Below are positions 2,058-28,415 of a stretch of DNA of 32,000 nt, piece after piece; the stretch's first letter is position 1, and every line of letters begins with the position of its first letter. This stretch comes from Corynebacterium glutamicum ATCC 13032. GTDB taxonomy: Bacteria > Actinomycetota > Actinomycetes > Mycobacteriales > Mycobacteriaceae. The position numbers were made by a program, and so were the translations under genes. Under the pieces are notes generated by a model. It did not search any database. It saw only the letters and a program-made list of their open reading frames with translations, and was not told the DNA's origin. The stretch lies in the NCBI RefSeq assembly GCF_000011325.1, contig NC_003450.3, positions 990,001 through 1,022,000 of the forward strand. The letters are read 5' to 3'.

Positions 2058-3083
2058 ATGAGCATCCTTGACACGTTGAAAACTCCCGTGATTGTCGCCC
2101 CGATGGCTGGCGGCCCGTCCACTCCCGCGTTGGTCAATGCAGCAGCAGAGGCAGGTTCCCTCGGGTTCTTGGCTGGTGGCGTCATGCCTCTTGAGCAGCT
2201 GAAACAGGAATTGTCAGAGGTAAAAGGCGTCTTTGGCGTCAACCTGTTTCGCCCGCAGACGGATGCGCCTAAGCCTTCAGACATTGATGAGCTGGCGGGA
2301 TTGTTGTCCTCGGCGTTTCGGCAATTTGGCCTCGATGAGCCGACGGTGCCTACGCCGGATTTGAGCAATGGGTGGGAGGCTAAATTTGAGGCCGTTCTTG
2401 CCGCTAAGCCCGCCGTTTTTTCCTGCACCTTTGGTATTTTTAGCGCTGAAGAATTCGCCCGGATCAAAGCCACCGGAATTGAGGCGTGGGTGACGGTGAC
2501 CAATCCGGAGGACGCGCTGGCTGCGCAGAAAGCTGGCGCCAACGCGCTTGTCGTGCAAGGCCCCGAGGCGGGTGGGCACCGCTCTACCTGGTCCATTGAA
2601 GTGGAGCCGGACGAGCGCGACCTGAAAACCCTCCTCGCAGCTGTCAAACAAGCGGGCGTTTACCTCCCGCTCATCGCAGCCGGCGGCCTTTCAACCTCCG
2701 CAGACGTGGCAGCAATTTTAGAAGCCGGCGCCAGCGCTGCCTCCTGTGGTTCCGCCTTTTTGCTTAGCGACGAAGCCGGCACCAGCTCACTTAACCGCGA
2801 GATCTTGGACGCCGCCCCAGCACTTGGTTTGGAATCGGTGTCATCTCGCGCATTTTCGGGCCGTTATGCCAGGGGAGTGGAAACCAGGTTCACCCGTTCG
2901 AACGAGGGGTTACCCCCGTTGTACCCATACCTCAACCCAATGATCACATCTTTACGTAAGGTGGCGGGAAGTGCAGGGAACTGGGATTACGCCTACTGCC
3001 TGGTAGGAGTCGGCCTGGAATCGATTGCGAAGGGTAGTGCAAAGCAGATACTGGAATCATTAACACCTTCCGCTTTGGGCTAA
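2058..3083 (+). CDS. nitronate monooxygenase / 2-nitropropane dioxygenase family FMN oxidoreductase
   Basis: N-terminal VIVAPMAGGPSTPALV, GPEAGGH and IAAGG motifs typical of the NMO TIM-barrel family. 341 aa. Confidence 0.85.
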   Translation: MSILDTLKTPVIVAPMAGGPSTPALVNAAAEAGSLGFLAGGVMPLEQLKQELSEVKGVFGVNLFRPQTDAPKPSDIDELAGLLSSAFRQFGLDEPTVPTPDLSNGWEAKFEAVLAAKPAVFSCTFGIFSAEEFARIKATGIEAWVTVTNPEDALAAQKAGANALVVQGPEAGGHRSTWSIEVEPDERDLKTLLAAVKQAGVYLPLIAAGGLSTSADVAAILEAGASAASCGSAFLLSDEAGTSSLNREILDAAPALGLESVSSRAFSGRYARGVETRFTRSNEGLPPLYPYLNPMITSLRKVAGSAGNWDYAYCLVGVGLESIAKGSAKQILESLTPSALG

Positions 3084-3173
3084 TGTTGGGGGGAGTGCTT
3101 TCAACTATCCACGAGAGCTGCCCAGTGATAAACCCCGGGTTAACCCCACGCCTAAGTCAGTGAAGGACTTTTT

Positions 3174-4616
3174 ATGACGCACAACCACAAGGACTGGAAC
3201 GATCGCATTGCAGTTGCGGAGGAAATGGTGCCGTTGATCGGGCGCCTGCACCGCAACAACAACGTGGTGGTTTCCGTATTCGGTCGTCTCCTTGTGAATG
3301 TCTCAGACATCGATATCATCAAGTCTCACCGCTACGCCCGCCACATCATATCCAAGGAACTTCCACTGGAAAGCTCCTTGGATATTTTGCGCGAACTGGT
3401 AGATATGAACCTTGGTACCGCATCGATCGACCTGGGACAGCTGGCCTACAGCTTCGAAGAATCCGAAAGCACCGACCTGCGTGCCTTCCTGGAGGACGCT
3501 CTCGCGCCGGTCATTGGTGCGGAAACCGACATCAACCCAACTGATATCGTGCTGTACGGTTTCGGCCGCATCGGTCGCCTGCTGGCCCGCATCCTGGTTT
3601 CCCGCGAGGCACTGTATGACGGTGCTCGTCTGCGCGCCATCGTGGTCCGCAAAAATGGTGAAGAAGACCTGGTCAAGCGCGCATCCTTGCTGCGTCGTGA
3701 TTCTGTCCACGGTGGATTCGATGGCACCATCACCACCGATTATGACAACAACATCATCTGGGCCAACGGCACCCCAATCAAGGTCATCTACTCCAATGAC
3801 CCAGCCACCATTGATTACACCGAATACGGCATCAATGACGCCGTCGTGGTAGACAACACCGGCCGCTGGCGTGACCGCGAAGGCCTGTCCCAGCACCTCA
3901 AGTCCAAGGGCGTTGCCAAGGTTGTACTCACCGCGCCGGGCAAGGGCGATCTGAAGAACATCGTGTACGGCATCAACCACACCGACATCACCGCAGATGA
4001 TCAGATCGTTTCCGCAGCATCATGCACCACCAATGCCATTACCCCAGTGCTCAAGGTGATCAATGATCGCTACGGCGTGGAATTCGGCCACGTAGAAACC
4101 GTTCACTCCTTCACCAATGACCAGAACCTGATCGACAACTTCCACAAGGGTTCTCGCCGTGGTCGCGCAGCAGGTCTGAATATGGTTCTCACCGAAACCG
4201 GCGCTGCAAAGGCTGTATCCAAGGCGCTTCCAGAGCTGGAAGGCAAGCTCACCGGCAATGCCATCCGCGTTCCTACCCCTGACGTGTCCATGGCTGTGCT
4301 CAACTTGACCCTGAACACGGAGGTGGACCGCGATGAGGTCAACGAGTTCCTCCGCCGTGTGTCCCTGCACTCTGACTTGCGCCAGCAAATCGACTGGATC
4401 CGTTCCCCAGAGGTTGTTTCCACTGACTTCGTGGGCACCACCCACGCGGGCATCGTTGATGGTCTAGCCACCATCGCAACCGGTCGCCACCTGGTGCTTT
4501 ACGTGTGGTACGACAACGAGTTCGGCTACTCCAACCAGGTCATTCGCATCGTCGAGGAGATCGCCGGCGTGCGTCCTCGCGTGTACCCGGAGCGCAGGCA
4601 GCCAGCCGTACTATAG
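3174..4616 (+). CDS. gapB: glyceraldehyde-3-phosphate dehydrogenase, long 480-aa form
   Basis: NAD(P)-binding GFGRIGR, catalytic SCTTN, and C-terminal WYDNEFGYS. The roughly 120-aa N-terminal extension matches the second GAPDH (gapX/gapB) of corynebacteria. RBS gaagga lies upstream. Confidence 0.93.
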   Translation: MTHNHKDWNDRIAVAEEMVPLIGRLHRNNNVVVSVFGRLLVNVSDIDIIKSHRYARHIISKELPLESSLDILRELVDMNLGTASIDLGQLAYSFEESESTDLRAFLEDALAPVIGAETDINPTDIVLYGFGRIGRLLARILVSREALYDGARLRAIVVRKNGEEDLVKRASLLRRDSVHGGFDGTITTDYDNNIIWANGTPIKVIYSNDPATIDYTEYGINDAVVVDNTGRWRDREGLSQHLKSKGVAKVVLTAPGKGDLKNIVYGINHTDITADDQIVSAASCTTNAITPVLKVINDRYGVEFGHVETVHSFTNDQNLIDNFHKGSRRGRAAGLNMVLTETGAAKAVSKALPELEGKLTGNAIRVPTPDVSMAVLNLTLNTEVDRDEVNEFLRRVSLHSDLRQQIDWIRSPEVVSTDFVGTTHAGIVDGLATIATGRHLVLYVWYDNEFGYSNQVIRIVEEIAGVRPRVYPERRQPAVL

Positions 4617-4649
4617 GTTATCCAAGCCTAATACACTACGATTAGGCAT

Positions 4650-4841
4650 ATGAGTAAGCGTAAGTCACGGGTGAAAGTTACCCACAATCCATTGGGCATG
4701 AAAGTCAAAGACACGTGCTGTCGCAAAACGCCGCGCTGCACCAACTGCCCAGTGGTGTACACACGCTTACTCAAATCCGGGGTCTTAGAAAACGACGACG
4801 CCGACCTGCCGCGCCGCCTCAAAGAGGCGCGGCGCAAGTAG
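4650..4841 (+). CDS. small basic cysteine-rich hypothetical protein (63 aa, CC-x6-C-x2-C)
   Basis: ATG-initiated ORF between gapB and the convergent pth1. It has a four-Cys cluster CCRKTPRCTNC and K/R-rich termini. No family recognised, and the SD is weak. Confidence 0.4.
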   Translation: MSKRKSRVKVTHNPLGMKVKDTCCRKTPRCTNCPVVYTRLLKSGVLENDDADLPRRLKEARRK

Positions 4842-5384
4842 CTAGCCCTGCTGCAAATGCTTTTCGACGAGATCTGCAGCGTCAGCCGCCATGATGGGAA
4901 TATCCGCCAGTTCTTGCTTGCCAAAAGGCTTCAACACAAAACTTGCCGGATCCATCCGACCCGGTGGCCTACCGATACCCATGCTGAGCTTCCAATAGTC
5001 CTTAGTTCCCAAAGATTTGGACGTGGATTTCAGACCATTGTGCCCATGATCCCCGCCACCCTGACGTAGCTTCACTGAGCCGAAATCAAGCTCCAATTCA
5101 TCATGCACCACGATGACATTGGCTGGGGAAATCTTAAAGAAGTCACACAGCGCCCGAATCGGAGTTCCCGACAGGTTCATAAAGCTGCGCGGCTTGGCCA
5201 CAATTAGCCCAGGAAGCTGCGCGATATCGGTGTTGGAGCGCTTGTGCACACTAAATGATCCAAAGCTGCGCGACACTAGTTCTTCTGCAACCTCAAAGCC
5301 AATATTGTGGCGGGTGCCAACGTATTTCGGGCCGGGATTTCCCAGGCCAACAACTAAAAGGGGAGAGTTATTCACATCCCCCAT
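4842..5384 (-). CDS. pth: peptidyl-tRNA hydrolase (paralog 1)
   Basis: VVGLGNPGPKYVGTRHNIG, HDELE and GHNGLKS. The ORF-track start at 5444 adds a non-conserved Cys/Trp-rich 20 aa. I place the start at ATG 5384, with GTG 5375 as an alternative. It lies downstream of rplY, as in many bacteria. Confidence 0.88.
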   Translation of the reverse strand: MGDVNNSPLLVVGLGNPGPKYVGTRHNIGFEVAEELVSRSFGSFSVHKRSNTDIAQLPGLIVAKPRSFMNLSGTPIRALCDFFKISPANVIVVHDELELDFGSVKLRQGGGDHGHNGLKSTSKSLGTKDYWKLSMGIGRPPGRMDPASFVLKPFGKQELADIPIMAADAADLVEKHLQQG

Positions 5385-5523
5385 CCAACCATGAGTCCAC
5401 CACAAGCAAAAACAGGCCCCGCCACCATGTGAGGAAACCTCCATGATGATCGTGCACTGTCATCACTTTAAATTTCCCCGCACGGCAACGAGGCCCGCGA
5501 AAGATAAAGCTATCTAAAAAAGC

Positions 5524-6126
5524 TTACTCAGTAGCTGCTTCTTCAGCTGCTTCGTCCTCTTCGGTGTCTTCTTCCTCGACAGCTGGGAGAACGATGTTGA
5601 CGATGAGGGTCTCAGGATCCTCAACCAGGGTGGTGTCGCCCTCGAGCTTGATGTCAGCTGCGGTGATCTGTGCGCCGAGCTCAAGGCCTTCGATGGAAAC
5701 GGTGAACTCTTCAGGGATGGACAGAACGTCAGCCTCAACCTTGATGGTGTCAGCATCCTGAACCCACATGGTGCCTGGAGCTGGCTCGCCCTCGACGATA
5801 ACTGGAACGTCAACCTCAACCTTTTCGCCGCGCTTAATGGCAAGCAGGTCCAAGTGGTCGATGTGGAAGGTCAGCACGTTCTGGTCGATGTGCTTGATCA
5901 TGGTGAGCTGCTTCTGGCCCTCGATGTCGAGCTCAAGAACAGCGTTTACGCCTTCCTGGCGAACCAGCGCAGCGAAGGTGCGGTGGTCGATGGTGACGTG
6001 CAGGTTGGACTCAACATCTGCGCCGTAAACAACAGCAGGGATCTGGCCAGCAACGCGTGCACGACGTGCAGAGCCCTTGCCGAACTCAGAGCGGACAGCA
6101 GCCTCAATGGTTTGGTACTTTGCCAT
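5524..6126 (-). CDS. rplY: 50S ribosomal protein L25 / general stress protein Ctc
   Basis: N-terminal ARRARVAGQIPAVVYG motif, acidic C-terminal tail, codon usage typical of highly expressed genes. 200 aa. Confidence 0.93.
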   Translation of the reverse strand: MAKYQTIEAAVRSEFGKGSARRARVAGQIPAVVYGADVESNLHVTIDHRTFAALVRQEGVNAVLELDIEGQKQLTMIKHIDQNVLTFHIDHLDLLAIKRGEKVEVDVPVIVEGEPAPGTMWVQDADTIKVEADVLSIPEEFTVSIEGLELGAQITAADIKLEGDTTLVEDPETLIVNIVLPAVEEEDTEEDEAAEEAATE

Positions 6127-6401
6127 AGTGATTTCTCCTCATGGATGAAGGTGGACACTCGGCCGCGAAAATAAAAAATGCCCGCGACCGACTCGAATGT
6201 CTTGGTCGAGTCTTCGCAGGCAGCGCACAAAAGTGCACTTTAGAAGTCTAGATCGCGTCGATAACGGTTGAGCACTAGAAGTACTTGACCCTCGCCGAGA
6301 CCTAAATATGCTAGCACGATGGCCAAACCTAATCCAAAAACCGGCAGTATACTGATTGGGGTCACATTAGCCAAAAGGCACTTTGAGGAAGTGGAACTCC
6401 T

Positions 6402-6833
6402 ATGGCACGACTTCAGCACGACATGATTTTCATCAACCTACCAGTATCTGACCTTGCAGCATCTAAGCGTTTTTATGCAGGTCTTGGCTTCAAAGAAAAC
6501 ACCGTCTTCAGTGATGAGCACACTGCATCTTTTGAGGTCAGTGACGCCATCGTGGTGATGCTTCTGGAAACCGCGCGCTTCAGTGATTTCACTAAGCGCC
6601 CCATCGTGGAGAAGAACGGCTCCCGCGAAGTGCTCAACTGCCTGTCTGTATGTTCCACCGAGGATGCGGATGAGTTCGTGCGTCGCGCCCAGGAATTCGG
6701 AGGCACGATCACCCGTGAGCTTGCAGCGGAAGGCCCCATGTACGGCGGAGCTTTTGATGATCCAGATGGACACGGTTGGGAGCTGATGTACTTCGATCCA
6801 GAGGCACTCGCTCAGATGATGCCTGAGGGCTAA
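6402..6833 (+). CDS. VOC (glyoxalase/bleomycin-resistance/dioxygenase) family protein
   Basis: 143 aa. The pattern FYAGLGF...DPDGHGWELM is typical of VOC-fold proteins. Confidence 0.8.
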   Translation: MARLQHDMIFINLPVSDLAASKRFYAGLGFKENTVFSDEHTASFEVSDAIVVMLLETARFSDFTKRPIVEKNGSREVLNCLSVCSTEDADEFVRRAQEFGGTITRELAAEGPMYGGAFDDPDGHGWELMYFDPEALAQMMPEG

Positions 6834-7456
6834 ATATTCTTCAGGGCTTCTCGCCGGCTCAGTGGGGAAAGGTCCGTGGCGTCGACAAAAGCCCGGACCC
6901 AGCTGGGGTCGTGGCGGGCGAAATCCCGCAGTGCCCAGCCGATCGCTTTGTTGATGAAGAACTCGCTGGAGCCGAGGTTCTGCTCGATGATCCAGGCCAG
7001 CAGGGCAGCGTCGGTGTTTTTCTTGCGGCCCAGTTGGTGGATGATCGCGATGCGGCGCACCCAGAAGTCCTCATCAAGCGCCCACGTTTTCATCAGATCA
7101 TCATCGTGTTTGGCGCCGATCGGTTTTGCTAGGGAATCGACGGTGTCCCACCAGGATTTGGTCTGCACTAATGCTTTGGCAAAACCTAGATCGGTGATGC
7201 CGACGCGATTGATGTGATCGCAGGCGACATACTGGTATTCCCGTTCAGCTGCGCCAAAGCAGTCTGAGACAAAGTCAGTGTCCAACTCTTTTAGCGCGGA
7301 CAGCACGGGTTTGCAGGCTTCTTTTCTGGGGGTGGATGGGATGCCGAGAAAAGAAAACTGATCCCGCATGTAGCTTGCCATTCCGGTGGCACGTGCGGGA
7401 TCAGCTAGAGGTTCCAATGCCAACCGGACGCGGTTGAAGACGTCCGTGGTGGGCAT
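6830..7456 (-). CDS. DNA alkylation repair protein (AlkD-like HEAT-repeat family)
   Basis: Motifs SWWDTVD, FWVRRIAIIHQL and NKAIGWALRDFAR are characteristic of the DNA alkylation repair enzyme family. 208 aa. Confidence 0.82.
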   Translation of the reverse strand: MPTTDVFNRVRLALEPLADPARATGMASYMRDQFSFLGIPSTPRKEACKPVLSALKELDTDFVSDCFGAAEREYQYVACDHINRVGITDLGFAKALVQTKSWWDTVDSLAKPIGAKHDDDLMKTWALDEDFWVRRIAIIHQLGRKKNTDAALLAWIIEQNLGSSEFFINKAIGWALRDFARHDPSWVRAFVDATDLSPLSRREALKNI

Positions 7457-7462
7457 GGGTGT

Positions 7463-8440
7463 TTAGGCCTCGCCCTCGAAGAGGGTGGTGACGGAACCGT
7501 TTTCGAAGATCTCGTTGATGGTGCGAGCCAGCAGCGGTGCGATCGACAAAACGGTCAGGTTGCTCCAGCCCTCGGTGGACTGTGGCAGGGTGTCGGTGGT
7601 GATGACTTCTTCAGCACCGCATGCAGACAGGCGCTCGCGGGCTGGGTCAGAGAACACACCGTGGGTGCAGGCGATGACGACTGACTTTGCGCCAGCCTTC
7701 TTCAGGACGCCCACAGCGCCGGCGATGGTGCCGCCAGTGTCGATCATGTCGTCGAGAAGCACGCAGTCCTTGCCGTCGACGTCACCGACGACGCGGTTGG
7801 CGACAACCTGGTTTGCTACCTCGGTGGAGCGGGTCTTGTGCACGAACGCCATTGGGGCATCGCCCAAGGTGTTAGCCCACTTCTCTGCAACCTTCACGCG
7901 ACCTGCGTCAGGGGAGACCACGCAGATGTTGTCCAGGTTGTAGTTTTCCTTGATGTGATCGGTGAGGATCGGCATGGCGTGCATGTGATCGACTGGGCCG
8001 TCGAAGAAGCCCTGGATCTGATCGGTGTGCAAGTCCACGGACACGATACGGTCCGCGCCAGCGGTGAGCATGAGGTCGGCGATGAGGCGAGCAGAAATTG
8101 GCTCGCGGCCGCGGTGCTTCTTGTCCTGGCGGGCATATGGGTAGAACGGCAGGATCGCGGTGATGCGCTTTGCGGAACCACGCTTCAAAGCGTCGATCAT
8201 CAGCAGCTGTTCCATGAGCCACTTGTTGAGAGGCTGGGTGTGGGACTGCAGGACGAAGCAGTCGGAGCCACGAACTGATTCCTCGAAGCGGACGTAGATT
8301 TCACCGTTGGCGAAATCGCGTGCCGTCATTGGGGTGACGTTGACGTCGAGCTCTTTAGCTACAGCTTCTGCCAGTTCTGGGTGCGCACGACCCGAAAACA
8401 GCATGAGGTTCTTTTGGTTTTGTTTCCAGTGAGCAGTCAT
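7463..8440 (-). CDS. prs: ribose-phosphate pyrophosphokinase (PRPP synthetase)
   Basis: LFSGRAHPELA, YARQDKK and the PRPP-binding loop DDMIDTGGT. 325 aa. Confidence 0.95.
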   Translation of the reverse strand: MTAHWKQNQKNLMLFSGRAHPELAEAVAKELDVNVTPMTARDFANGEIYVRFEESVRGSDCFVLQSHTQPLNKWLMEQLLMIDALKRGSAKRITAILPFYPYARQDKKHRGREPISARLIADLMLTAGADRIVSVDLHTDQIQGFFDGPVDHMHAMPILTDHIKENYNLDNICVVSPDAGRVKVAEKWANTLGDAPMAFVHKTRSTEVANQVVANRVVGDVDGKDCVLLDDMIDTGGTIAGAVGVLKKAGAKSVVIACTHGVFSDPARERLSACGAEEVITTDTLPQSTEGWSNLTVLSIAPLLARTINEIFENGSVTTLFEGEA

Positions 8441-23767: not shown

Positions 23768-24015
23768 CTCTCGAGCCTATCAAGGAACTTTTATGTGGGG
23801 AGATATTTTCTGAAAGAAAATTTAATTGGTAGAAACCCATGATTGGGGGCTTGCATTTGTTTCGTTGTTCACCTAAAGTTAACTCTAGGTTAACAAAAAG
23901 AGTTCTCAAGGTGAACTCAAGCGATCGGTGGAACATCCACTAACGGGGTTACCAAAAATCCTTCGCGGACACTCCCGAAGGAACACTTCTTGCGAGAAGG
24001 AAAGGAAGAAGCACT

Positions 24016-24267
24016 GTGAAGGGCATTCATCAGGAAATTAGCCGTATCGAGCGTAGCCACGATTATCTGTGGAGCGTCCGAGAAGACCTGCATGCACGAT
24101 TCGACAACCAACTGAAGGCACACTTTGTAGACAGTGTCCTGGATAGCATTGCAGAAGGATATGAAGGCCGAATCAACCGATTCCGCAAAATCTTCATTGA
24201 AATGAAAGCGGTTGAAGAGCTGCGCACCATCGCCGCCACCCGCCCAAGCCACCTCTTGGCTGCATAA
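24016..24267 (+). CDS. hypothetical helical protein (83 aa)
   Basis: GTG start preceded by a strong RBS (gaaggaaaggaag). Third-position GC bias fits coding sequence. A strong terminator follows 19 nt after the stop. The antisense 111-aa ORF has no such signals. Confidence 0.55.
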   Translation: MKGIHQEISRIERSHDYLWSVREDLHARFDNQLKAHFVDSVLDSIAEGYEGRINRFRKIFIEMKAVEELRTIAATRPSHLLAA

Positions 24268-24285
24268 GACACTTAAAAGTTAAAT

Positions 24286-24327
24286 AAAACACCCCGCTAC
24301 CTTATTAATTGGTAGCGGGGTGTTTTT
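24286..24327. terminator. bidirectional rho-independent terminator
   Basis: A perfect 16-bp stem aaaacaccccgctacc / ggtagcggggtgtttt with a 9-nt loop, flanked by A and T tracts. It sits between the convergent 24016-24267 (+) and 24340-24813 (-) genes. Confidence 0.9.
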
Positions 24328-24339
24328 AACTATTCCTAT

Positions 24340-24813
24340 TTATTCGCAGGCAATTCCGTCGCCATCGCGATCAAGCTTGGAACTATATCCAGGTGATCCC
24401 GCATAAAGGGGAGCTGCACCCGCCGCACGAACTGCCGCGCAGTTGGCGTAATACGTTTGAGCTGGTGCAACCGCCGGTGCAGGTTCCGGGATGGCCGCAA
24501 ACTGCTGTGGCGTATTTACCTGAGGCTCTGAATATTCCTCCACGGCCGCTGGCTTCACAATTTCTTGGGCAAGATCTTCCGCGGAGGTAGTTTCCGTCAC
24601 TGTCGAGGTGATCGTGCTGGCTTTAGCTGTGGTTGTCACCGTGGCTGTTACAGTTTCGGTAACTGTTGGTGCAGGGGCTTCGGGTTCTGCAGCGGCCGAA
24701 CCGCACGCAGTAATAAGTCCCATGGAAATAATGAGCGAGGAGCCGATAAGGGCCATTCGTTTCATGCGGCCTGAACTGCCTTTGGTGGAATGTGTAGGGG
24801 TGGGGAGAGTCAT
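24340..24813 (-). CDS. lipoprotein with C-terminal Excalibur calcium-binding domain
   Basis: C-terminus NCAAVRAAGAAPLYAGSPGYSSKLDRDGDGIACE (DxDxDGxxCE). Lipobox LITAC after MKRMALIGSSLIISMG. T/V-rich linker. The start is uncertain: ATG 24813, 24765 or the ORF-track 24861. Confidence 0.82.
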   Translation of the reverse strand: MTLPTPTHSTKGSSGRMKRMALIGSSLIISMGLITACGSAAAEPEAPAPTVTETVTATVTTTAKASTITSTVTETTSAEDLAQEIVKPAAVEEYSEPQVNTPQQFAAIPEPAPAVAPAQTYYANCAAVRAAGAAPLYAGSPGYSSKLDRDGDGIACE

Positions 24814-25057
24814 GATGCCTCGAGCTGGTAGAGAATTCGATATGGTCAAGTATGCTATCACTCGGTTCGCGAGGCTGAAGATTTCTGTGTCTGTCGTCTC
24901 TAACTACATACCCTAATCGGGTTTGTGAATAACTTGGATCCTGAAGTTGAAGAGCCGAATATTTCTCAGTGGGAAAGTCTTGATGATGACATTATCCCTG
25001 GAAATTGCACTAAAGTGTTTCTATCTGAACCCCAGCTAATGCATGGTCCTCTCCTTA

Positions 25058-25065
25058 GAGCGTTT
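25058..25065. repeat. 8-bp target-site duplication gagcgttt (left copy)
   Basis: Immediately precedes the IS terminal inverted repeat. The identical 8-mer immediately follows the 44-bp IS remnant at 27234-27241. Confidence 0.75.
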
Positions 25066-25906
25066 GGTGCTGTTGCAACTTGGGGCGGGAGCCAAGAAGG
25101 CTCCGTTTTTATTGTGTGATCAACGCTATGTGCCTGTGTTGTCAGGCCGTCTCGAATACCCGGCTAACAATCACTGCATCCGGATTCGGGTGACCATAGG
25201 CAAACATCGTGCCCTGCCCCTTCCGCAATGAGTGCATCGCCTCCATCCCTTTCAACGTCCGGTAGGCAGACGTTCGGTTTTTGAATGCGCCTTTCGGCCC
25301 CAGGATCCGCTTTAACCGACCATGGTCGCCTTCAATGACGTTGTTGAGGTATTTCACCCGACGATGCTCGACCGTCGATGGACAGACGCCTTCCGCCTTC
25401 AGCTCAGAGATTGCCCTGGCGAGTGAGGGGGCCTTGTCGGTGCTGATCACCCGCGGATAGCCTGCCGATTTATTCGACCGCAGCGTCTTCGCCAGGAAAC
25501 GCTTCGCCGCCGCGACGTTTCTCTTCGGGGAGAGGTAGAAGTCCAGGGTCTGGCTACCGGCGGTGATTGCCCGATAGAGGTAGCACCACTTTCCCCCGAC
25601 CCGGATATAGGTCTCATCCACCCGCCAGGACCTGGCCTGCCAGTCAGGAACTTGCCGATACCACCGGGTCTTCTTATCCAGCTCAGGAGCATATTTCTGG
25701 ACCCAGCGGTAGATCGTGGTGTGATCGACCGGCACTCCCCGCTCGGTCATCATCTCTTCGAGGTCGCGATAGCTCACGCCGTAGCGGCAGTACCACCGCA
25801 CCGCCCACAGGATGATTTCACGAGGGAACTGCCGACCGGAGAAGATGCCCATGGACCTGATTATTCCACGCCGGTCTTCCTACTGCCCCAACTTTGCAAC
25901 AGCACC
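25066..25906 (-). mobile_element. IS6-family insertion sequence (841 bp)
   Basis: Terminal inverted repeats ggtgctgttgcaacttgggg (25066-) and, in reverse complement at 25906, ggtgctgttgcaaagttgggg. The first 13 bp are identical and resemble the IS26-type GGCACTGTTGCAAA end. A single DDE transposase ORF fills the element. Confidence 0.9.
25142..25852 (-). CDS. IS6-family DDE transposase
   Basis: 236 aa. ILWAVRWYCRYGVSYRDLEEMMTERGVPVDHTTIYRWVQKYAPE is closely similar to IS26/IS6100-type transposases. DDE residues lie in WRVDETY, ISTDKAP and NNVIEGDHGRLK. Confidence 0.93.
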   Translation of the reverse strand: MGIFSGRQFPREIILWAVRWYCRYGVSYRDLEEMMTERGVPVDHTTIYRWVQKYAPELDKKTRWYRQVPDWQARSWRVDETYIRVGGKWCYLYRAITAGSQTLDFYLSPKRNVAAAKRFLAKTLRSNKSAGYPRVISTDKAPSLARAISELKAEGVCPSTVEHRRVKYLNNVIEGDHGRLKRILGPKGAFKNRTSAYRTLKGMEAMHSLRKGQGTMFAYGHPNPDAVIVSRVFETA

Positions 25907-26563
25907 GTTTTAGGTTATCCTGCAGGTGACCCTGAACTCCAAGATGATGGTTGGTATAGACAAGCCTTTGCAGATGGTTTCTTGCATGGAAAACAACTGA
26001 GTACATTTTTTCCCGCATGGGACGAGTTTGCATGGGACGATTCCGCTGGTGGCGAACCGGGGGTACTAATGTCAAGGCAGGCGGCGAACTATGATAAAGG
26101 ACCAGCTGGTGGAAATAAATACACTGATCAGGTCGTTCTTGAAACTGAGGATATGTGTGGCAATGAAATAATCCTCCGTAGAGGGTGGTACAACTCGGAT
26201 GCCTCCAGAAAAGATAAGCCGTGGGGGTACGATAAAATTCGGCACAAACATGGTGTTTTTAGTTTGTGGTCAGTTAGTATAGTATTTGAAAATTCGTGTA
26301 TCAACAGGATTGAAGGTACACAGCAGGTTTATGAAGAAGAAGTTTATCAAGTGAAATGTGATCGACTCTTCTTAAATTGTGAACAAACCGGGCAGTCTTT
26401 TGTATATCGCGGTATTTATGAAAGAAATATATATAAGCCTGGTGCTACAGAGCCACTTGGTTTGAGGACATTTTTTCCTGTACACAATGAGGGAACGCAT
26501 GGTTCAAGTGATGTAACCCCAACATGGTTTAGTACAGACATTCCAACATTGGACTTATGGTAA
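25907..26563 (+). CDS. hypothetical protein, 5' end abuts the IS (probably truncated; possible restart at ATG 26069)
   Basis: The frame is open from the IS boundary. The part of the ORF-track ORF at 25652-25906 is antisense read-through of the transposase gene. The region is AT-rich. The sequence contains GWYNSDASRKDKPWGYDKIRHKHG. No family recognised. Confidence 0.5.
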   Translation, partial: VLGYPAGDPELQDDGWYRQAFADGFLHGKQLSTFFPAWDEFAWDDSAGGEPGVLMSRQAANYDKGPAGGNKYTDQVVLETEDMCGNEIILRRGWYNSDASRKDKPWGYDKIRHKHGVFSLWSVSIVFENSCINRIEGTQQVYEEEVYQVKCDRLFLNCEQTGQSFVYRGIYERNIYKPGATEPLGLRTFFPVHNEGTHGSSDVTPTWFSTDIPTLDLW

Positions 26564-27021
26564 TGACGTACAAAGCAGATTATGATCTTGACTTGGAAAA
26601 AGTAGTTTTTCGTATGTCGCAGCTGTTCGAGGATCTTATTCCGTCAGAAAACGCTTTTGATTATTATGACAAGTCAACGTGGCCTACCCTGACTATGGCT
26701 GCGACATGGGTTCAGGATGATTGTCTCCTTATTGTTTTTAGGGTTGAGGAAAGCAGAGGTGAGACGTTCGTGGGTTATTTTTCTCGGATCTCGCCTCGAT
26801 ATAATCCCGACAACATCGAATTTGGTGCAGTAGAGCTAATGTATGCTGACTCAATTGCAGGTGATTGGTTTATAGAGAAGGTCGATCTGAAAGCTCCGCA
26901 AAAGATACATTGGAGAAATACCCACCATAGCCTCAATACTCCGGCGGATATAGAAGAATTATTGGACTATGCTAATGAGATACCAATGTGGTTGAGTCCA
27001 GACCTTGAGAAGTGGATGTGA
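26557..27021 (+). CDS. small acidic hypothetical protein (154 aa), translationally coupled to the preceding ORF
   Basis: Its ATG overlaps the upstream stop (ATGGTAA). By my count it has about 28 D+E versus about 13 K+R. No signal peptide or TM segment. A terminator follows. Confidence 0.6.
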   Translation: MVMTYKADYDLDLEKVVFRMSQLFEDLIPSENAFDYYDKSTWPTLTMAATWVQDDCLLIVFRVEESRGETFVGYFSRISPRYNPDNIEFGAVELMYADSIAGDWFIEKVDLKAPQKIHWRNTHHSLNTPADIEELLDYANEIPMWLSPDLEKWM

Positions 27022-27080
27022 TGCACAACAAGACCATGGTCATCCAGCTTTATCTGGCTGAGCTGGGTATGTAATCACTT

Positions 27081-27124
27081 CTGAACGTAGTAGCCTCCTT
27101 GAGATTGTATTTAAGGAGGCTATT
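27081..27124 (+). terminator. rho-independent terminator after the cargo gene pair
   Basis: A 10-bp stem tagcctcctt / aaggaggcta with a 12-nt loop, followed by ttgtgttttttc. A second hairpin, gtctccgact/agtcggagac, lies at 27132-27158. Confidence 0.7.
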
Positions 27125-27189
27125 GTGTTTTTTCGGTAAAGGTCTCCGACTGAGCTATAGTCGGAGACTATTTCAATATCACCCCAGAG

Positions 27190-27233
27190 GGTGCTGTTGC
27201 AACTTGGCTCCCGCCCCAAGTTGCAACAGCACC
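27190..27233. mobile_element. 44-bp collapsed IS6 copy (terminal inverted repeats only, perfect 18-bp-arm palindrome)
   Basis: Sequence ggtgctgttgcaacttggctcccgccccaagttgcaacagcacc. Bases 27203-27233 are an exact reverse complement of IS bases 25066-25096 (31/31). The first 13 bp equal the shared IR core. Confidence 0.85.
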
Positions 27234-27241
27234 GAGCGTTT
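27234..27241. repeat. 8-bp target-site duplication gagcgttt (right copy)
   Basis: Identical to 25058-25065 and directly abuts the outer end of the IS remnant. Confidence 0.75.
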
Positions 27242-27270
27242 ACTGTATCTCTGATGCAGAAAAGTGGAAT

Positions 27271-27870
27271 TTAGAGCCATTTGAAATAGATGATCATTTC
27301 ACCGCAGTATCTGGTGTCTTGATCAGTCCACACCTCGACCAAATCTTGTGAGTCGTCGTCATTTTCTGGTCGGTTAATAAAAATCTCTGCGGAGAAATCT
27401 CCATCCTCCTTAATATGTTCTGGAGTAAAATAGAATTTGCTAACGATTTCTCTATTCTGAAATTTCGTGATGCGGTTTCTAATATCGGCTGACCAAAGAC
27501 CATCCACATAGGAAACCAAGAAGTCGGGGCCACTTTCCGGATCGAAGCCCTTCGACCAGACCGTCACAGTCGCGTCAATGCCATGTTCAGTTTCTGTGAA
27601 ATGTTGTTTATGCACGTCCGGTTGTGGAAAGAGGCTTTTCTTGATCAAGCGTTCATTCCATCCCAGTTTGATGTTTTTCACAAAGGCATCAGTATCGATA
27701 TCAGTGAGGTCGTAGAATTTTTCTTCGTGAACAGCAGTGATATCCTTCGCGACGTCTCTAAGCTGCAAACGTGCAATCATTAATGGCACCTCTAGCGTGA
27801 GGTTTTGCTCGTCGATCCACTCCTGAATGCACACCTCTACAGCAAGGACTCTGTCAAACTTGTCAGTCAT
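27271..27870 (-). CDS. acidic cytoplasmic hypothetical protein (199 aa)
   Basis: ATG with RBS aagga about 9 nt upstream. AT-rich, D/E-rich, with no TM segment or signal peptide. No family recognised. Confidence 0.6.
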   Translation of the reverse strand: MTDKFDRVLAVEVCIQEWIDEQNLTLEVPLMIARLQLRDVAKDITAVHEEKFYDLTDIDTDAFVKNIKLGWNERLIKKSLFPQPDVHKQHFTETEHGIDATVTVWSKGFDPESGPDFLVSYVDGLWSADIRNRITKFQNREIVSKFYFTPEHIKEDGDFSAEIFINRPENDDDSQDLVEVWTDQDTRYCGEMIIYFKWL

Positions 27871-28190
27871 ATCCTATTTTCCTTAAATTGCGGGGATAGC
27901 TGAGGCTGAAGTTATTTCAGTTTTGCTTCTCTCTGAGAGGATAGTGGGACTAACCAGCCTTGGGGAGGCTTGGTGAATTTAGGGTTTAGCGGCAGAGCGT
28001 GAAATCTCTGAGATCAAGTTACTTCGGGAACAAACTGCGCGGCAGCATCGATACATTGTTGAAGTCACTCAGCAGATCCGTGTGTGGGAAATTGACGCTA
28101 CAGATCGTGGACACGATTTTCCACCACCGAAATTTGAAACGTTTTCTGAATTGAGTACGCGAATCTACGGCAGCAGGTTAAGGCAGTATC

Positions 28191-28244
28191 AAAGAAAACG
28201 AAAACCCCCGCTCATTAGCACTGAAAGTGCTGGTGAACGGGGGG
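28191..28244 (-). terminator. rho-independent terminator downstream of tRNA-Gln
   Basis: On the minus strand, ccccccg...cggggg encloses an inner agcact/agtgct hairpin and is followed by ttttcgttttcttt. Confidence 0.7.
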
Positions 28245-28253
28245 TTCTACTTG

Positions 28254-28325
28254 CTTCCCCACCAGGACTCGAACCTAGAATGACGGTACCAAAAACCGTA
28301 GTGTTGCCGATTACACCATGGGGAA
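28254..28325 (-). tRNA. tRNA-Gln (anticodon UUG)
   Basis: Manual cloverleaf: acceptor TTCCCCA/TGGGGAA (U1:A72), D arm GTGT..ACAC, anticodon arm ACGGT-TTTTGGT-ACCGT, T arm CTAGG-TTCGAGT-CCTGG, discriminator G. CCA is not encoded. 72 nt. Confidence 0.9.
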
Positions 28326-28415
28326 CTGCAGTAATTAACTGCACCGCTAGAGTTTACATCATTGTCTTAGAAAACCAATTATTGGGGTCCGCTTAGCTGA
28401 GATACTCTGGATGAC

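What the first reader, a model, noticed from the sequence alone, without database searches (positions are those of the whole stretch)
25058..27241. IS6-family composite transposon: intact IS, 1.28-kb cargo and a 44-bp collapsed second IS, bracketed by a perfect 8-bp direct repeat
The 841-bp IS (25066-25906) has no matching repeats at its own two flanks (gagcgttt versus gttttagg). The 8-mer gagcgttt that precedes it recurs exactly after a 44-bp palindrome at 27190-27233. That palindrome is 13 bp of the shared IR core joined to a 31/31 exact inverted copy of the IS end at 25066-25096. It therefore looks like a second IS copy, in inverted orientation, that lost its interior. Eight bp is the target-duplication length of IS6-family elements. 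The simplest reading is that IS - cargo - IS moved as one unit into the site ...ccttagagcgtttactgta.... The cargo (25907-27189) would then be mobile DNA. The remnant also forms a perfect 18-bp stem hairpin that could act as an insulator or terminator.
Basis: partly seen in the sequence, partly recalled or inferred. Interest (0 to 1): 0.75.

Follow-up and report, generated by a model that had tools for sequence, protein, structure and literature searches.

The report
IS1628 transposon with palindromic end remnant
A 2.2-kb piece of mobile DNA (an intact IS1628 insertion sequence, a captured gene fragment with its partner gene, and a 44-bp palindrome made only of IS-end sequence) inserted as one block into the Corynebacterium glutamicum chromosome; it is an ordinary kind of element with one unusual detail, that both outer tips are the same IS end.

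Summary

- **The IS.** 25066-25906 is IS1628 (IS6 family), 99.9% identical to the pAG1 copy.
- **The empty site.** Three public contigs read ...CCTTA GAGCGTTT ACTGTA... with one GAGCGTTT. So 25066-27241 is a net insertion with an 8-bp target duplication.
- **The cargo.** It is mobile DNA: the last 219 codons of an LGFP-repeat protein gene plus a conserved 154-aa partner ORF. In two other records it continues without an IS at a cargo boundary. In another strain IS-cargo-IS sits at a new site with its own 8-bp duplication (GTTTTGTA).
- **The ORF across 25065/25907.** It is in frame but is an accident.

Two corrections:
- The full two-IS relative has direct IS copies, not inverted ones.
- The palindrome cannot yet be assigned to a single collapsed inverted IS. 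It could equally be a collapsed inverted pair of ends or a minimal end.

Palindromes of the same design occur elsewhere: the identical one beside an erm(X) region, and one from a related IS in pTET3, pCG4 and pCGR2. None has its own target duplication.

There is no support for a terminator role.

This is a known family. The variant is that both outer tips are the same IS end, which the accepted IS6 model does not expect. Interest is modest.

The parts
25058..25065 (.). Left copy of the 8-bp target-site duplication GAGCGTTT
   Evidence: Only two copies in the window. The empty-site contigs carry a single copy.
25066..25906 (-). Intact IS1628 (IS6 family), 841 bp
   Evidence: 99.9% identical to IS1628 on pAG1 NC_001415.1. 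Terminal inverted repeats found (I5). ISfinder lists the length as 841 bp and the transposase as 236 aa, as cited in PMC6807381.
25142..25852 (-). IS6-family DDE transposase gene, 236 aa
   Evidence: Pfam DDE_Tnp_IS240, 2.8e-44. NCBIfam transpos_IS6, 1e-78. This copy carries S100 where other copies have G100.
25066..25096 (+). tnp-distal terminus of IS1628: 13-bp IR core, then CTTGG, GGCGGGAG, CCAAG. This is the sequence from which the palindrome is built.
   Evidence: 31/31 reverse complement of 27203-27233. The internal 5-bp inverted repeat is at IS positions 14-18 and 27-31.
25887..25906 (-). tnp-proximal terminal inverted repeat
25907..27189 (+). 1,283-bp passenger (cargo) DNA, 43% G+C
   Evidence: 99.9% identical to L001 5351-6633, where no IS touches either cargo boundary. 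L008 independently shows the right edge running on without an IS. In L005 the same segment lies between two full IS1628 copies.
25907..26563 (+). 3' fragment (219 codons) of an LGFP-repeat protein gene, cut inside its last LGFP repeat. The C-terminal domain is uncharacterised.
   Evidence: The translation of L001 4496-6007 continues upstream as ...WAYSGGIEG|VLGYPAGD.... Pfam LGFP, 9.6e-40, on the L001 protein. Full-length homologues of about 544 aa exist. The C-terminal part has no Pfam or PDB match.
26557..27021 (+). 154-aa ORF, the conserved downstream partner of the LGFP protein gene
   Evidence: 89% identical to the partner ORF in L095 and 28-30% identical to those in C. ammoniagenes loci L096 and L098. 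No family match.
27084..27129 (+). Terminator-like hairpin plus T-run belonging to the cargo
27190..27233 (.). 44-bp palindrome made only of the IS1628 tnp-distal terminus (18-bp arms, 8-nt loop). It is the right-hand boundary of the inserted unit.
   Evidence: Identical in every genome that carries the unit. The identical palindrome occurs in an unrelated context in L084.
27234..27241 (.). Right copy of the 8-bp target-site duplication GAGCGTTT

Best explanation
Window 25066-27233 is a 2,168-bp IS1628-based mobile unit. It entered a low-G+C islet of the Corynebacterium glutamicum chromosome at the target GAGCGTTT and duplicated those 8 bp.

The unit has three parts:
- an intact IS1628;
- 1,283 bp of passenger DNA that two IS insertions carved out of an LGFP-repeat-protein/154-aa ORF gene pair;
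- a 44-bp palindrome made only of the IS1628 tnp-distal terminus.

Shown:
- The block is a net insertion with an 8-bp duplication.
- Both outermost tips are the same IS end in inverted orientation.

Inferred:
- The two outer junctions were made in one event, by a transposase acting on two inverted copies of that end, as in a compound transposon.
- The palindrome is the remnant of the right-hand IS structure, either one inverted IS or an inverted pair of IS ends. It collapsed by a hairpin-directed deletion, comparable to 'nearly precise excision' of Tn10.
- After insertion, the IS plus passenger moved again in IS26 fashion. A circle excised across the 18-bp direct repeat 25066-25083 / 27190-27207, and copy-in integration followed. 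This produced IS-cargo-IS with the new duplication GTTTTGTA seen in CP041729.1.
For: - **Empty site.** A single GAGCGTTT in three contigs, ungapped, 99.3-99.6% identical.
- **8-mer.** Present only at the two junctions.
- **IS.** IS1628 with an intact IS6 transposase.
- **Tips.** The right tip is 31/31 the inverted tnp-distal end and not the proximal end, which differs after 13 bp. Both outer junctions therefore carry the same end.
- **Cargo.** In L001 neither cargo boundary touches an IS, and in L008 the right boundary runs on uninterrupted. In L005 it lies between two direct full IS copies with the 8-bp duplication GTTTTGTA.
- **Excision repeat.** An 18-bp direct repeat is available for excising IS plus cargo.
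- **Age of the unit.** It is fixed, palindrome included, in two haplotypes that differ by 2 SNPs. Insertion and collapse are therefore old.
- **Recurrence.** End-palindromes recur independently, each matching its own parent IS. The identical one is in L084. A 45-bp one in pTET3, pCG4 and pCGR2 equals positions 1-28 plus the reverse complement of positions 1-17 of the pCmarinum2 IS distal end. A 25-bp-stem one built from a proximal-type end is in L061.
- **Family behaviour.** IS6-family elements make 8-bp duplications and cointegrates, including in C. glutamicum (PMC7986276; PMC1590026). A related IS has a clean 8-bp duplication, GAACGATG.
Against: - No genome was found with a full second IS at this site in either orientation, and none with the palindrome alone between two GAGCGTTT copies. 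The precursor and the order of events are therefore inferred.
- The accepted IS6 model holds that compound structures work only with direct IS copies, and that inverted ones stall at the cointegrate stage (PMC7986276).
- The only two-IS relative (L005) is direct.
- A single-IS internal deletion has no microhomology at its joint.
- The inverted-pair version needs a more complex precursor.
- Whether the transposase can use a 44-bp palindrome arm as an end is untested.
Confidence: 0.75

Rival explanations
1. The unit was IS - cargo - one full IS1628 in inverted orientation. The second IS later lost positions 14-810 in a single internal deletion, leaving 13 bp of its proximal IR core joined to 31 bp of its distal end.
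For: - The parse 13 + 31 = 44 is exact.
- It needs only one deletion.
- Intramolecular 'in trans' transposition of IS6 elements is known to create inverted IS pairs around a segment (PMC7986276).
- The 13-bp terminal IR stem, stacked on the internal CTTGG/CCAAG hairpin, could direct a loop-out deletion to exactly this joint.
Against: - The joint has no microhomology (sequence).
- For an undirected deletion, only about 1 endpoint in 800 extends the stem from 13 to 18 bp.
- In L005 the IS at the same cargo junction (27189|27190) is in direct orientation, and the first 18 nt of the palindrome match that orientation.
- The plasmid palindrome fits a two-distal-end parse with 0 mismatches. It fits the single-IS parse with 1 mismatch against the only known parent-like end.
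Confidence: 0.3
2. Palindrome first. An element bounded by two tnp-distal ends inserted at GAGCGTTT and made the duplication. This was either the 44-bp palindrome itself, acting as a minimal MITE-like element, or an inverted IS pair that later collapsed. A circular IS1628 + cargo translocatable unit then integrated next to its left arm by the IS26-type targeted conservative reaction, which adds no new duplication.
For: - It explains the outer direct repeat.
- It explains the cargo|IS-end junction that is identical to L005.
- It explains the 18-nt match of the left arm.
- The identical palindrome stands alone, with no IS1628 within 7 kb either side, in L084.
- Targeted integration next to an existing IS copy is documented for IS26 (PMC7986276).
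Against: - None of six palindrome contexts has its own 8-bp duplication.
- No GAGCGTTT-palindrome-GAGCGTTT site was found. The roughly 100-aa ORF that such a site would create is absent from the protein collection (weak evidence).
- From memory, the IS26 targeted reaction needs an active IS at the target.
- ISfinder's IS6 MITEs are 227 and 336 bp, not 44 bp.
Confidence: 0.15
3. Simple IS1628 insertion into a pre-existing gene. On this view the ORF 24925-25065 continues in frame at 25907, and the palindrome and 8-mer are coincidental.
For: Joining 25065 to 25907 gives an open 265-codon frame.
Against: - The empty site joins 25065 to 27242, not to 25907.
- Upstream of 25907 the native sequence is LGFP-gene DNA (...GGAATTGAGGGT|GTTTTAGG), not the window's left flank.
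- The IS has no duplication of its own.
- An in-frame join is expected one time in three by chance.
Confidence: 0.01
4. The palindrome is primarily a functional RNA or DNA signal (an intrinsic terminator or insulator between the convergent cargo operon and the 199-aa gene), not a transposition scar.
For: - The 18-bp stem is very stable.
- It lies between convergent genes.
- The plasmid version sits 8 bp after the mobF stop codon in pTET3 and pCG4.
Against: - No T-run follows on either strand, and the terminator scan does not call it. The scan does call 27084-27129 just upstream.
- Its sequence is entirely IS-end sequence.
- In pCGR2 it lies 336 bp from mobF.
- In L084 it marks a composition break.
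Confidence: 0.05

Closest known systems
IS1628 (IS6/IS26 family; ISfinder entry from C. glutamicum plasmid pAG1, AF121000)
   Same: 99.9% DNA identity over the whole 841 bp, a 236-aa transposase and 20-bp IRs.
   Different: This copy is chromosomal and carries Tnp S100 instead of G100. ISfinder records no target duplication for IS1628 ('nd'). Here two 8-bp duplications, GAGCGTTT and GTTTTGTA, bracket IS1628-bounded units.
IS26-type pseudo-compound transposons and translocatable units (Tn4352, Tn610/IS6100, Tn4003/IS257)
   Same: An IS6-family IS plus adjacent passenger DNA, with an 8-bp duplication. The L005 copy (IS-cargo-IS, direct, new duplication) is a textbook example.
   Different: In the window the second IS is only a 44-bp palindrome, and its outer tip is the same IS end as the left tip, inverted. 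The family's compound structures are described as invariably direct.
Classical compound transposons with inverted IS copies (Tn10, Tn5), and the roughly 50-bp palindromic remnant left by 'nearly precise excision' of Tn10 (Foster et al. 1981, recalled from memory and not checked here)
   Same: Two identical outer ends in inverted orientation, a target duplication and an empty site. There is also a short palindromic remnant made of the outer IS termini.
   Different: Tn10 and Tn5 are cut-and-paste IS4-family elements, whereas IS6 elements are replicative. Only one side of this unit is collapsed, and the collapse used at most 5 bp of repeat (CTTGG) rather than 24 bp.
IS6-family MITEs (MITEBth2, MITEHarch3; 227 and 336 bp)
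   Same: Both are built from IS ends without a transposase gene.
   Different: At 44-45 bp these are five to eight times shorter. Both arms come from the same IS end. None of six contexts has its own target duplication.

Membership tests
IS6/IS26 family insertion sequence (IS1628) | Single DDE transposase of the IS6 type | tested here: met
   Pfam PF13610, 2.8e-44. NCBIfam NF033587, 1e-78, 263.7 bits against a cut-off of 125.
IS6/IS26 family insertion sequence (IS1628) | Length of about 700-890 bp with short terminal IRs containing the ...CTGTTGCAA core | tested here: met
   841 bp. The IRs have a 13-bp perfect core and are 20 nt at 85% complementarity. 99.9% identical to IS1628.
IS6/IS26 family insertion sequence (IS1628) | 8-bp direct target duplication | tested here: met
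   Not present around the IS alone (GAGCGTTT against GTTTTAGG). Present around the whole unit and around IS-cargo-IS in L005. A related IS in L100 has GAACGATG on both sides.
IS6/IS26 family insertion sequence (IS1628) | Replicative transposition through cointegrates | not testable with these tools
   Known for IS6100 in C. glutamicum (PMC1590026).
IS26-type pseudo-compound transposon | Passenger flanked by two full IS copies in direct orientation | tested here: not met
   The window has one IS plus a 44-bp palindrome whose outer tip is inverted. The feature is met by the related copy in L005.
Compound transposon with inverted IS ends (Tn10/Tn5-like behaviour) | Identical outer ends in inverted orientation, a target duplication, and an empty site in relatives | tested here: met
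   Both tips are the tnp-distal end. 8-bp duplication. Empty site.
Compound transposon with inverted IS ends (Tn10/Tn5-like behaviour) | Two complete IS copies | tested here: not met
   Only 44 bp remain on the right. No assembly with a full second IS at this site was found.
MITE (for the 44-bp palindrome on its own) | The element is flanked by its own target duplication, and multiple copies lie at unrelated sites | tested here: not met
   The flanks differ in all six contexts (window, L084, pTET3, pCG4, pCGR2, L061). The exact palindrome was found at only one other site. No hits in species-representative genomes, but C. glutamicum itself is missing from that collection.
Intrinsic transcription terminator (for the palindrome) | G+C-rich hairpin followed by a T/U run | tested here: not met
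   The hairpin is present. There is no T-run on either strand, and the scan does not call it.
Hairpin-directed collapse remnant (Tn10 'nearly precise excision'-like) | A remnant consisting of the two outer termini, joined at a short repeat near the base of the inverted repeat | tested here: inconclusive
   The joint can be placed in a 5-bp repeat (CTTGG is distal-end positions 14-18 and also the reverse complement of positions 27-31). The plasmid palindrome shows only 1 bp of overlap against the known parent-like end. No precursor was found.

The most novel reading that the evidence does not exclude
IS1628-group elements repeatedly generate palindromes of roughly 44-56 bp made of one IS terminus. 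These could act as minimal transposon ends. Paired with a full IS, such a palindrome (or the inverted IS it derives from) would let an IS6-family element move adjacent DNA as a true unit with a target duplication. The accepted IS6/IS26 model, in which compound structures work only with direct IS copies, does not include this mode. The palindromes would then be an undescribed class of IS6-derived boundary elements that mark the edges of acquired DNA, such as the erm(X) region in L084 and the mobF-adjacent site in pTET3-type plasmids.
Probability: 0.25. Interest if true: 0.55.

Novelty: new variant of a known kind. Interest (0 to 1): 0.4.

Why it matters
- **For C. glutamicum.** The unit sits in the type-strain lineage and in the MB001-like chassis record CP005959.1. 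It creates chimeric ORFs that are annotated as genes. It has also seeded a second IS1628 site and at least one IS-mediated chromosomal rearrangement in other strains.
- **For mobile-DNA biology.**
  - It provides the first target-duplication evidence for IS1628, which ISfinder lists as 'nd'.
  - It gives a natural before/after series: the source locus, the carved-out passenger, a unit insertion with a verified empty site, and secondary IS-cargo-IS movement.
  - It gives a concrete case in which two identical, inverted IS6-family ends bracket a target duplication. That is testable against the rule that IS6 compound transposons must have direct repeats.
  - The recurring end-palindromes are cheap to test as substrates.

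Tried and rejected
1. **Simple IS insertion into a gene.** The join of 25065 to 25907 is in frame. I rejected it because of the empty site and the native upstream sequence of the cargo.
2. **Intramolecular inversion signature.** I looked for inverted 8-bp copies on the inner and outer flanks. GTTTTAGG, CCCCAGAG and GAGCGTTT are not reverse complements of one another, and the L001 flanks do not fit either.
3. **Fold-back (snap-back) priming at the IS end.** This would make the flanks symmetric too, or would leave a reverse-complemented 8-mer at the right junction. Neither is seen.
4. **Transposase autointegration or hairpin chemistry.** I could not derive the observed joint, position 26 of one arm to position 18 of the other, from IS6-type strand transfer. 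This is reasoning only.
5. **Palindrome as a MITE.** None of six contexts has its own duplication.
6. **Palindrome as a terminator.** There is no T-run.
7. **Genome-contig scans.**
   - The palindrome pattern gave 0 hits.
   - The GGT-based scan showed that C. glutamicum itself is not in that collection. The zero therefore speaks only for other species, and the pattern was too specific to catch variant stems.
8. **Search for the hypothetical empty-site ORF.** It found only the 64-aa IS read-through ORF.
9. **PLSDB search for the cargo.** No plasmid carries it at 85% identity or more.
10. **Literature.** No description of this unit or of IS6 end-palindromes was found. The ISCg name of this copy could not be established.
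11. **Conserved hairpin in the distal end.** I expected one across IS1628 relatives, but it is not conserved.
Full report
**1. Observation.**

- An 841-bp element lies at 25066-25906. Its terminal inverted repeats share a perfect 13-bp core, GGTGCTGTTGCAA.
- Its own flanks differ: GAGCGTTT on the left and GTTTTAGG on the right.
- GAGCGTTT occurs only twice in the 32-kb window. One copy abuts the left IS tip (25058-25065). The other abuts the right tip of a 44-bp palindrome (27234-27241).
- The palindrome (27190-27233) has 18-bp perfect arms and an 8-nt loop. Folded as DNA it gives -22.6 kcal/mol, z = -7.
- Its right 31 nt are an exact reverse complement of 25066-25096.

One naming point matters below. 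The transposase gene is on the - strand (25852 to 25142). The end at 25066 is therefore the tnp-distal end (conventional IRR), and the end at 25906 is tnp-proximal.

**2. Identity and host.**

The 236-aa ORF is an IS6-family DDE transposase (Pfam 2.8e-44; NCBIfam transpos_IS6 1e-78). The element is IS1628, 99.9% identical to the copy on C. glutamicum plasmid pAG1. ISfinder lists IS1628 as 841 bp with a 236-aa transposase and no recorded target duplication (PMC6807381).

Window 24000-28400 is 100% identical to a C. glutamicum chromosome record, CP005959.1 (locus L002). The whole arrangement, palindrome included, is in about ten different complete genomes, in draft assemblies and in a metagenome contig.

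**3. The decisive test: an empty site.**

The 199-aa gene just right of the unit has a 99%-identical variant, P0002. Three read-set assemblies carry that variant (L037, L038, L039). In them the 199-aa gene and the Excalibur-domain gene lie 281 bp apart.

These contigs read ...CCTCTCCTTA GAGCGTTT ACTGTATCTC... with one 8-mer. They align ungapped at 99.3-99.6% to window 24000-25065 joined to 27242-28400.

So 25066-27241 is a net insertion with an 8-bp target duplication, which is the IS6-family length (PMC7986276; PMC1590026). That stretch is the IS, the cargo, the palindrome and one copy of the 8-mer, 2,176 bp in all.

**4. The cargo is captured, mobile DNA.**

- **In L001 (CP022614.1).** The 1,283 bp are 99.9% identical and continue on both sides without any IS. 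On the left the sequence reads ...GGAATTGAGGGT|GTTTTAGG..., and on the right ...CCCCAGAG|ACAGCCTC....
- **In L008.** The right side runs further still, uninterrupted.
- **What the cargo encodes.**
  - Its left edge cuts an LGFP-repeat protein gene inside a repeat (...WAYSGGIEG|VLGYPAGD...).
  - Full-length homologues are about 544 aa, and across the family the C-terminal domains vary.
  - The 154-aa ORF is their conserved downstream partner. It is 89% identical in L095 and 28-30% identical in C. ammoniagenes.
- **In L005 (CP041729.1).** The same cargo lies between two full IS1628 copies in direct orientation, at a different chromosomal site. It is bracketed by its own 8-bp duplication, GTTTTGTA. 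This is a textbook IS26-type pseudo-compound transposon.
- **In L032.** This locus is a hybrid, GAGCGTTT-IS-GTTTTGTA. It records IS-by-IS recombination between the two sites.
- **Plasmids.** No PLSDB plasmid carries the cargo.

**5. What the tips say.**

The right tip of the unit is the tnp-distal end (31/31). It is not the proximal end, which diverges after 13 bp. Both outer junctions, GAGCGTTT|distal end and inverted distal end|GAGCGTTT, are therefore transposase-type junctions of the same IS end on one staggered target.

I could not obtain this from any of the following:
- a single-IS cointegrate, which always gives one distal and one proximal tip;
- homologous recombination between IS copies, which cannot change which tip abuts a flank;
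- an intramolecular inversion, whose flank signature is absent.

The inference is that an entity bounded by two inverted distal ends transposed. The current IS6 model says this should not yield a finished product (PMC7986276).

**6. Origin of the palindrome (inferred).**

Three parses fit the sequence.
13 bp of proximal IR core plus 31 bp of distal end, from one inverted IS that lost 797 bp.
  - The joint has no microhomology.
  - An undirected deletion would give an 18-bp stem only about 1 time in 800.
  - A loop-out at the junction of the 13-bp IR stem and the internal CTTGG/CCAAG hairpin could direct the deletion there.
- **(b) Two distal ends.** Positions 1-18 plus the reverse complement of positions 1-26, joined in the 5-bp repeat CTTGG, from a collapsed inverted pair of IS copies. 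This fits the direct IS seen at the same cargo junction in L005.
- **(c) A pre-existing minimal element.** An IS + cargo circle would then have integrated next to it.

No precursor was found, so I do not choose between (a) and (b). I rate (c) lower.

**7. Recurrence.**

A palindrome of the same design sits in pTET3, pCG4, pCGR2 and one more C. glutamicum plasmid. It reads GGTGCTGTTGCAAAGCGG ctctccgcc CCGCTTTGCAACAGCACC.

It equals positions 1-28 plus the reverse complement of positions 1-17 of the distal end of a related IS on C. marinum pCmarinum2, with no mismatch. It therefore formed independently from a different parent.

The exact IS1628 palindrome also occurs in metagenome contig L084. 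There it lies at the break between 66%-G+C host DNA and a lower-G+C erm(X) region, with no IS1628 within 7 kb on either side. L061 has a 25-bp-stem version built from a proximal-type end.

None of the six contexts has its own 8-bp duplication. These are not simple MITE insertions. They look like recurrent scars or minimal ends at the edges of IS-mobilised DNA. I found no description of them.

**8. Terminator idea.**

No T-run follows the hairpin on either strand. The scan does not call it, but it does call 27084-27129 inside the cargo. The idea is unsupported.

**9. Verdict.**

This is a real, correctly read IS1628-bounded transposon insertion. The family and its behaviour are known. The cargo has no evident selectable function: it is a gene fragment plus a possible immunity-like partner ORF.

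The unusual elements are the identical inverted outer ends around a target duplication and the recurring end-palindromes. I rate it a new variant of a known kind, of modest interest (0.4).

Noticed in passing
window 24862-28250; tRNA-Gln at 28253-28325 (-): The insertion target lies in a low-G+C islet (about 44-45% against 55% for the window) next to a tRNA-Gln gene. The islet holds an orphan 199-aa gene (27271-27870, -). That gene has only one 90%-identity cluster and one 34%-identical relative among 5.8 billion proteins.
   Followed up: partly
window 24925-25119 (+) and 25652-26563 (+): Two chimeric ORFs are created by the insertion. One is a 64-aa ORF that runs from the flank into the IS; a source names it a hypothetical protein (P0001). 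The other is a 303-aa ORF that starts inside the IS, antisense to tnp, and reads into the truncated LGFP gene; several genomes call it as a gene.
   Followed up: partly
window 25088-25104 (+): There is a terminator-like hairpin, GGAGCC-aagaa-GGCTCC followed by GTTTTTATTG, just inside the tnp-distal IS end. It is oriented to stop transcription entering the IS from outside, antisense to tnp. The 31-nt stretch retained in the palindrome ends inside its loop.
   Followed up: no
window 25555 (IS position 490) and 26280: The unit exists in two haplotypes at this site. T,T is found here and in the other records identical to the window. C,C is found in AP017557.2, CP020033.1, CP121344.1 and others, and also in L001 and L005. 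The IS SNP changes transposase residue 100 from G to S in the window copy. The cargo SNP changes I to T.
   Followed up: partly
L001 (CP022614.1) 3685-7514: A longer LGFP-gene segment (2,148 bp) lies between two IS1628 copies in inverted orientation, with their tnp-distal ends facing inward. The outer flanks, GGCGTAAC and GGCGCAGC, match at 6 of 8 positions. The neighbourhood has two resolvase genes, Nramp, copper-resistance genes and a third, 84%-identical IS6 element.
   Followed up: partly
L032 (JACENQ010000001.1) and L005 (CP041729.1): L032 carries a hybrid IS1628 with the window's left flank (GAGCGTTT) and L005's right flank (GTTTTGTA). This indicates a large IS-mediated chromosomal rearrangement between the two IS1628 sites in some strains.
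   Followed up: partly
L041 (pCG4) 3001-3233; L043 (pCGR2) 2318-2545; L040 (pTET3) 3001-3045: In pCG4 and pCGR2 the 45-bp palindrome is fused to an IS6-family fragment that starts at IS position 660 in both. The two fragments are clearly different in sequence (closest to different IS types), and the palindrome loop is flipped relative to the fragment. In pTET3 the right side is instead 15 bp followed by IS6100. The left distance to mobF is 8 bp in pCG4 and pTET3 but 336 bp in pCGR2. Unexplained.
   Followed up: partly
L084 (OJKR01000091.1) 7143-7186: The identical IS1628 palindrome marks the junction between 66%-G+C DNA (ABC transporter and MFS genes) and a 47-58%-G+C region carrying an erm(X)-like rRNA methylase gene. 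No IS1628 lies within 7 kb on either side.
   Followed up: partly
window 25907-27021; L095, L096, L098: The LGFP-repeat protein and its small downstream ORF form a conserved pair in Corynebacterium. Among homologues the C-terminal domains vary (Pfam PF05708, PF09056, PF14040, PF22322, PF19855), an architecture like polymorphic toxin/immunity pairs. In C. ammoniagenes (L096) the pair lies between inverted ISL3 copies. In L095 an IS3-family element lies upstream.
   Followed up: partly
L100 (C. faecale pCFAEC45971b): An IS about 85% identical to IS1628 has a clean 8-bp target duplication, GAACGATG, showing ordinary simple insertions in this IS group.
   Followed up: no
window 25894-25921 (+): The tnp-proximal IR carries an outward-facing TTGCAA. 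It is followed after 16 nt by TATCCT in the cargo. This could be a hybrid promoter of the kind reported for IS26 and IS257. At 8 of 12 matches it falls below the scan threshold (sequence).
   Followed up: no
tool note (genome contigs): The species-representative genome collection returned no C. glutamicum locus for a 657-aa housekeeping-type protein from the window; the best hit was 70% identical. Negative DNA scans there say nothing about this species.
   Followed up: yes
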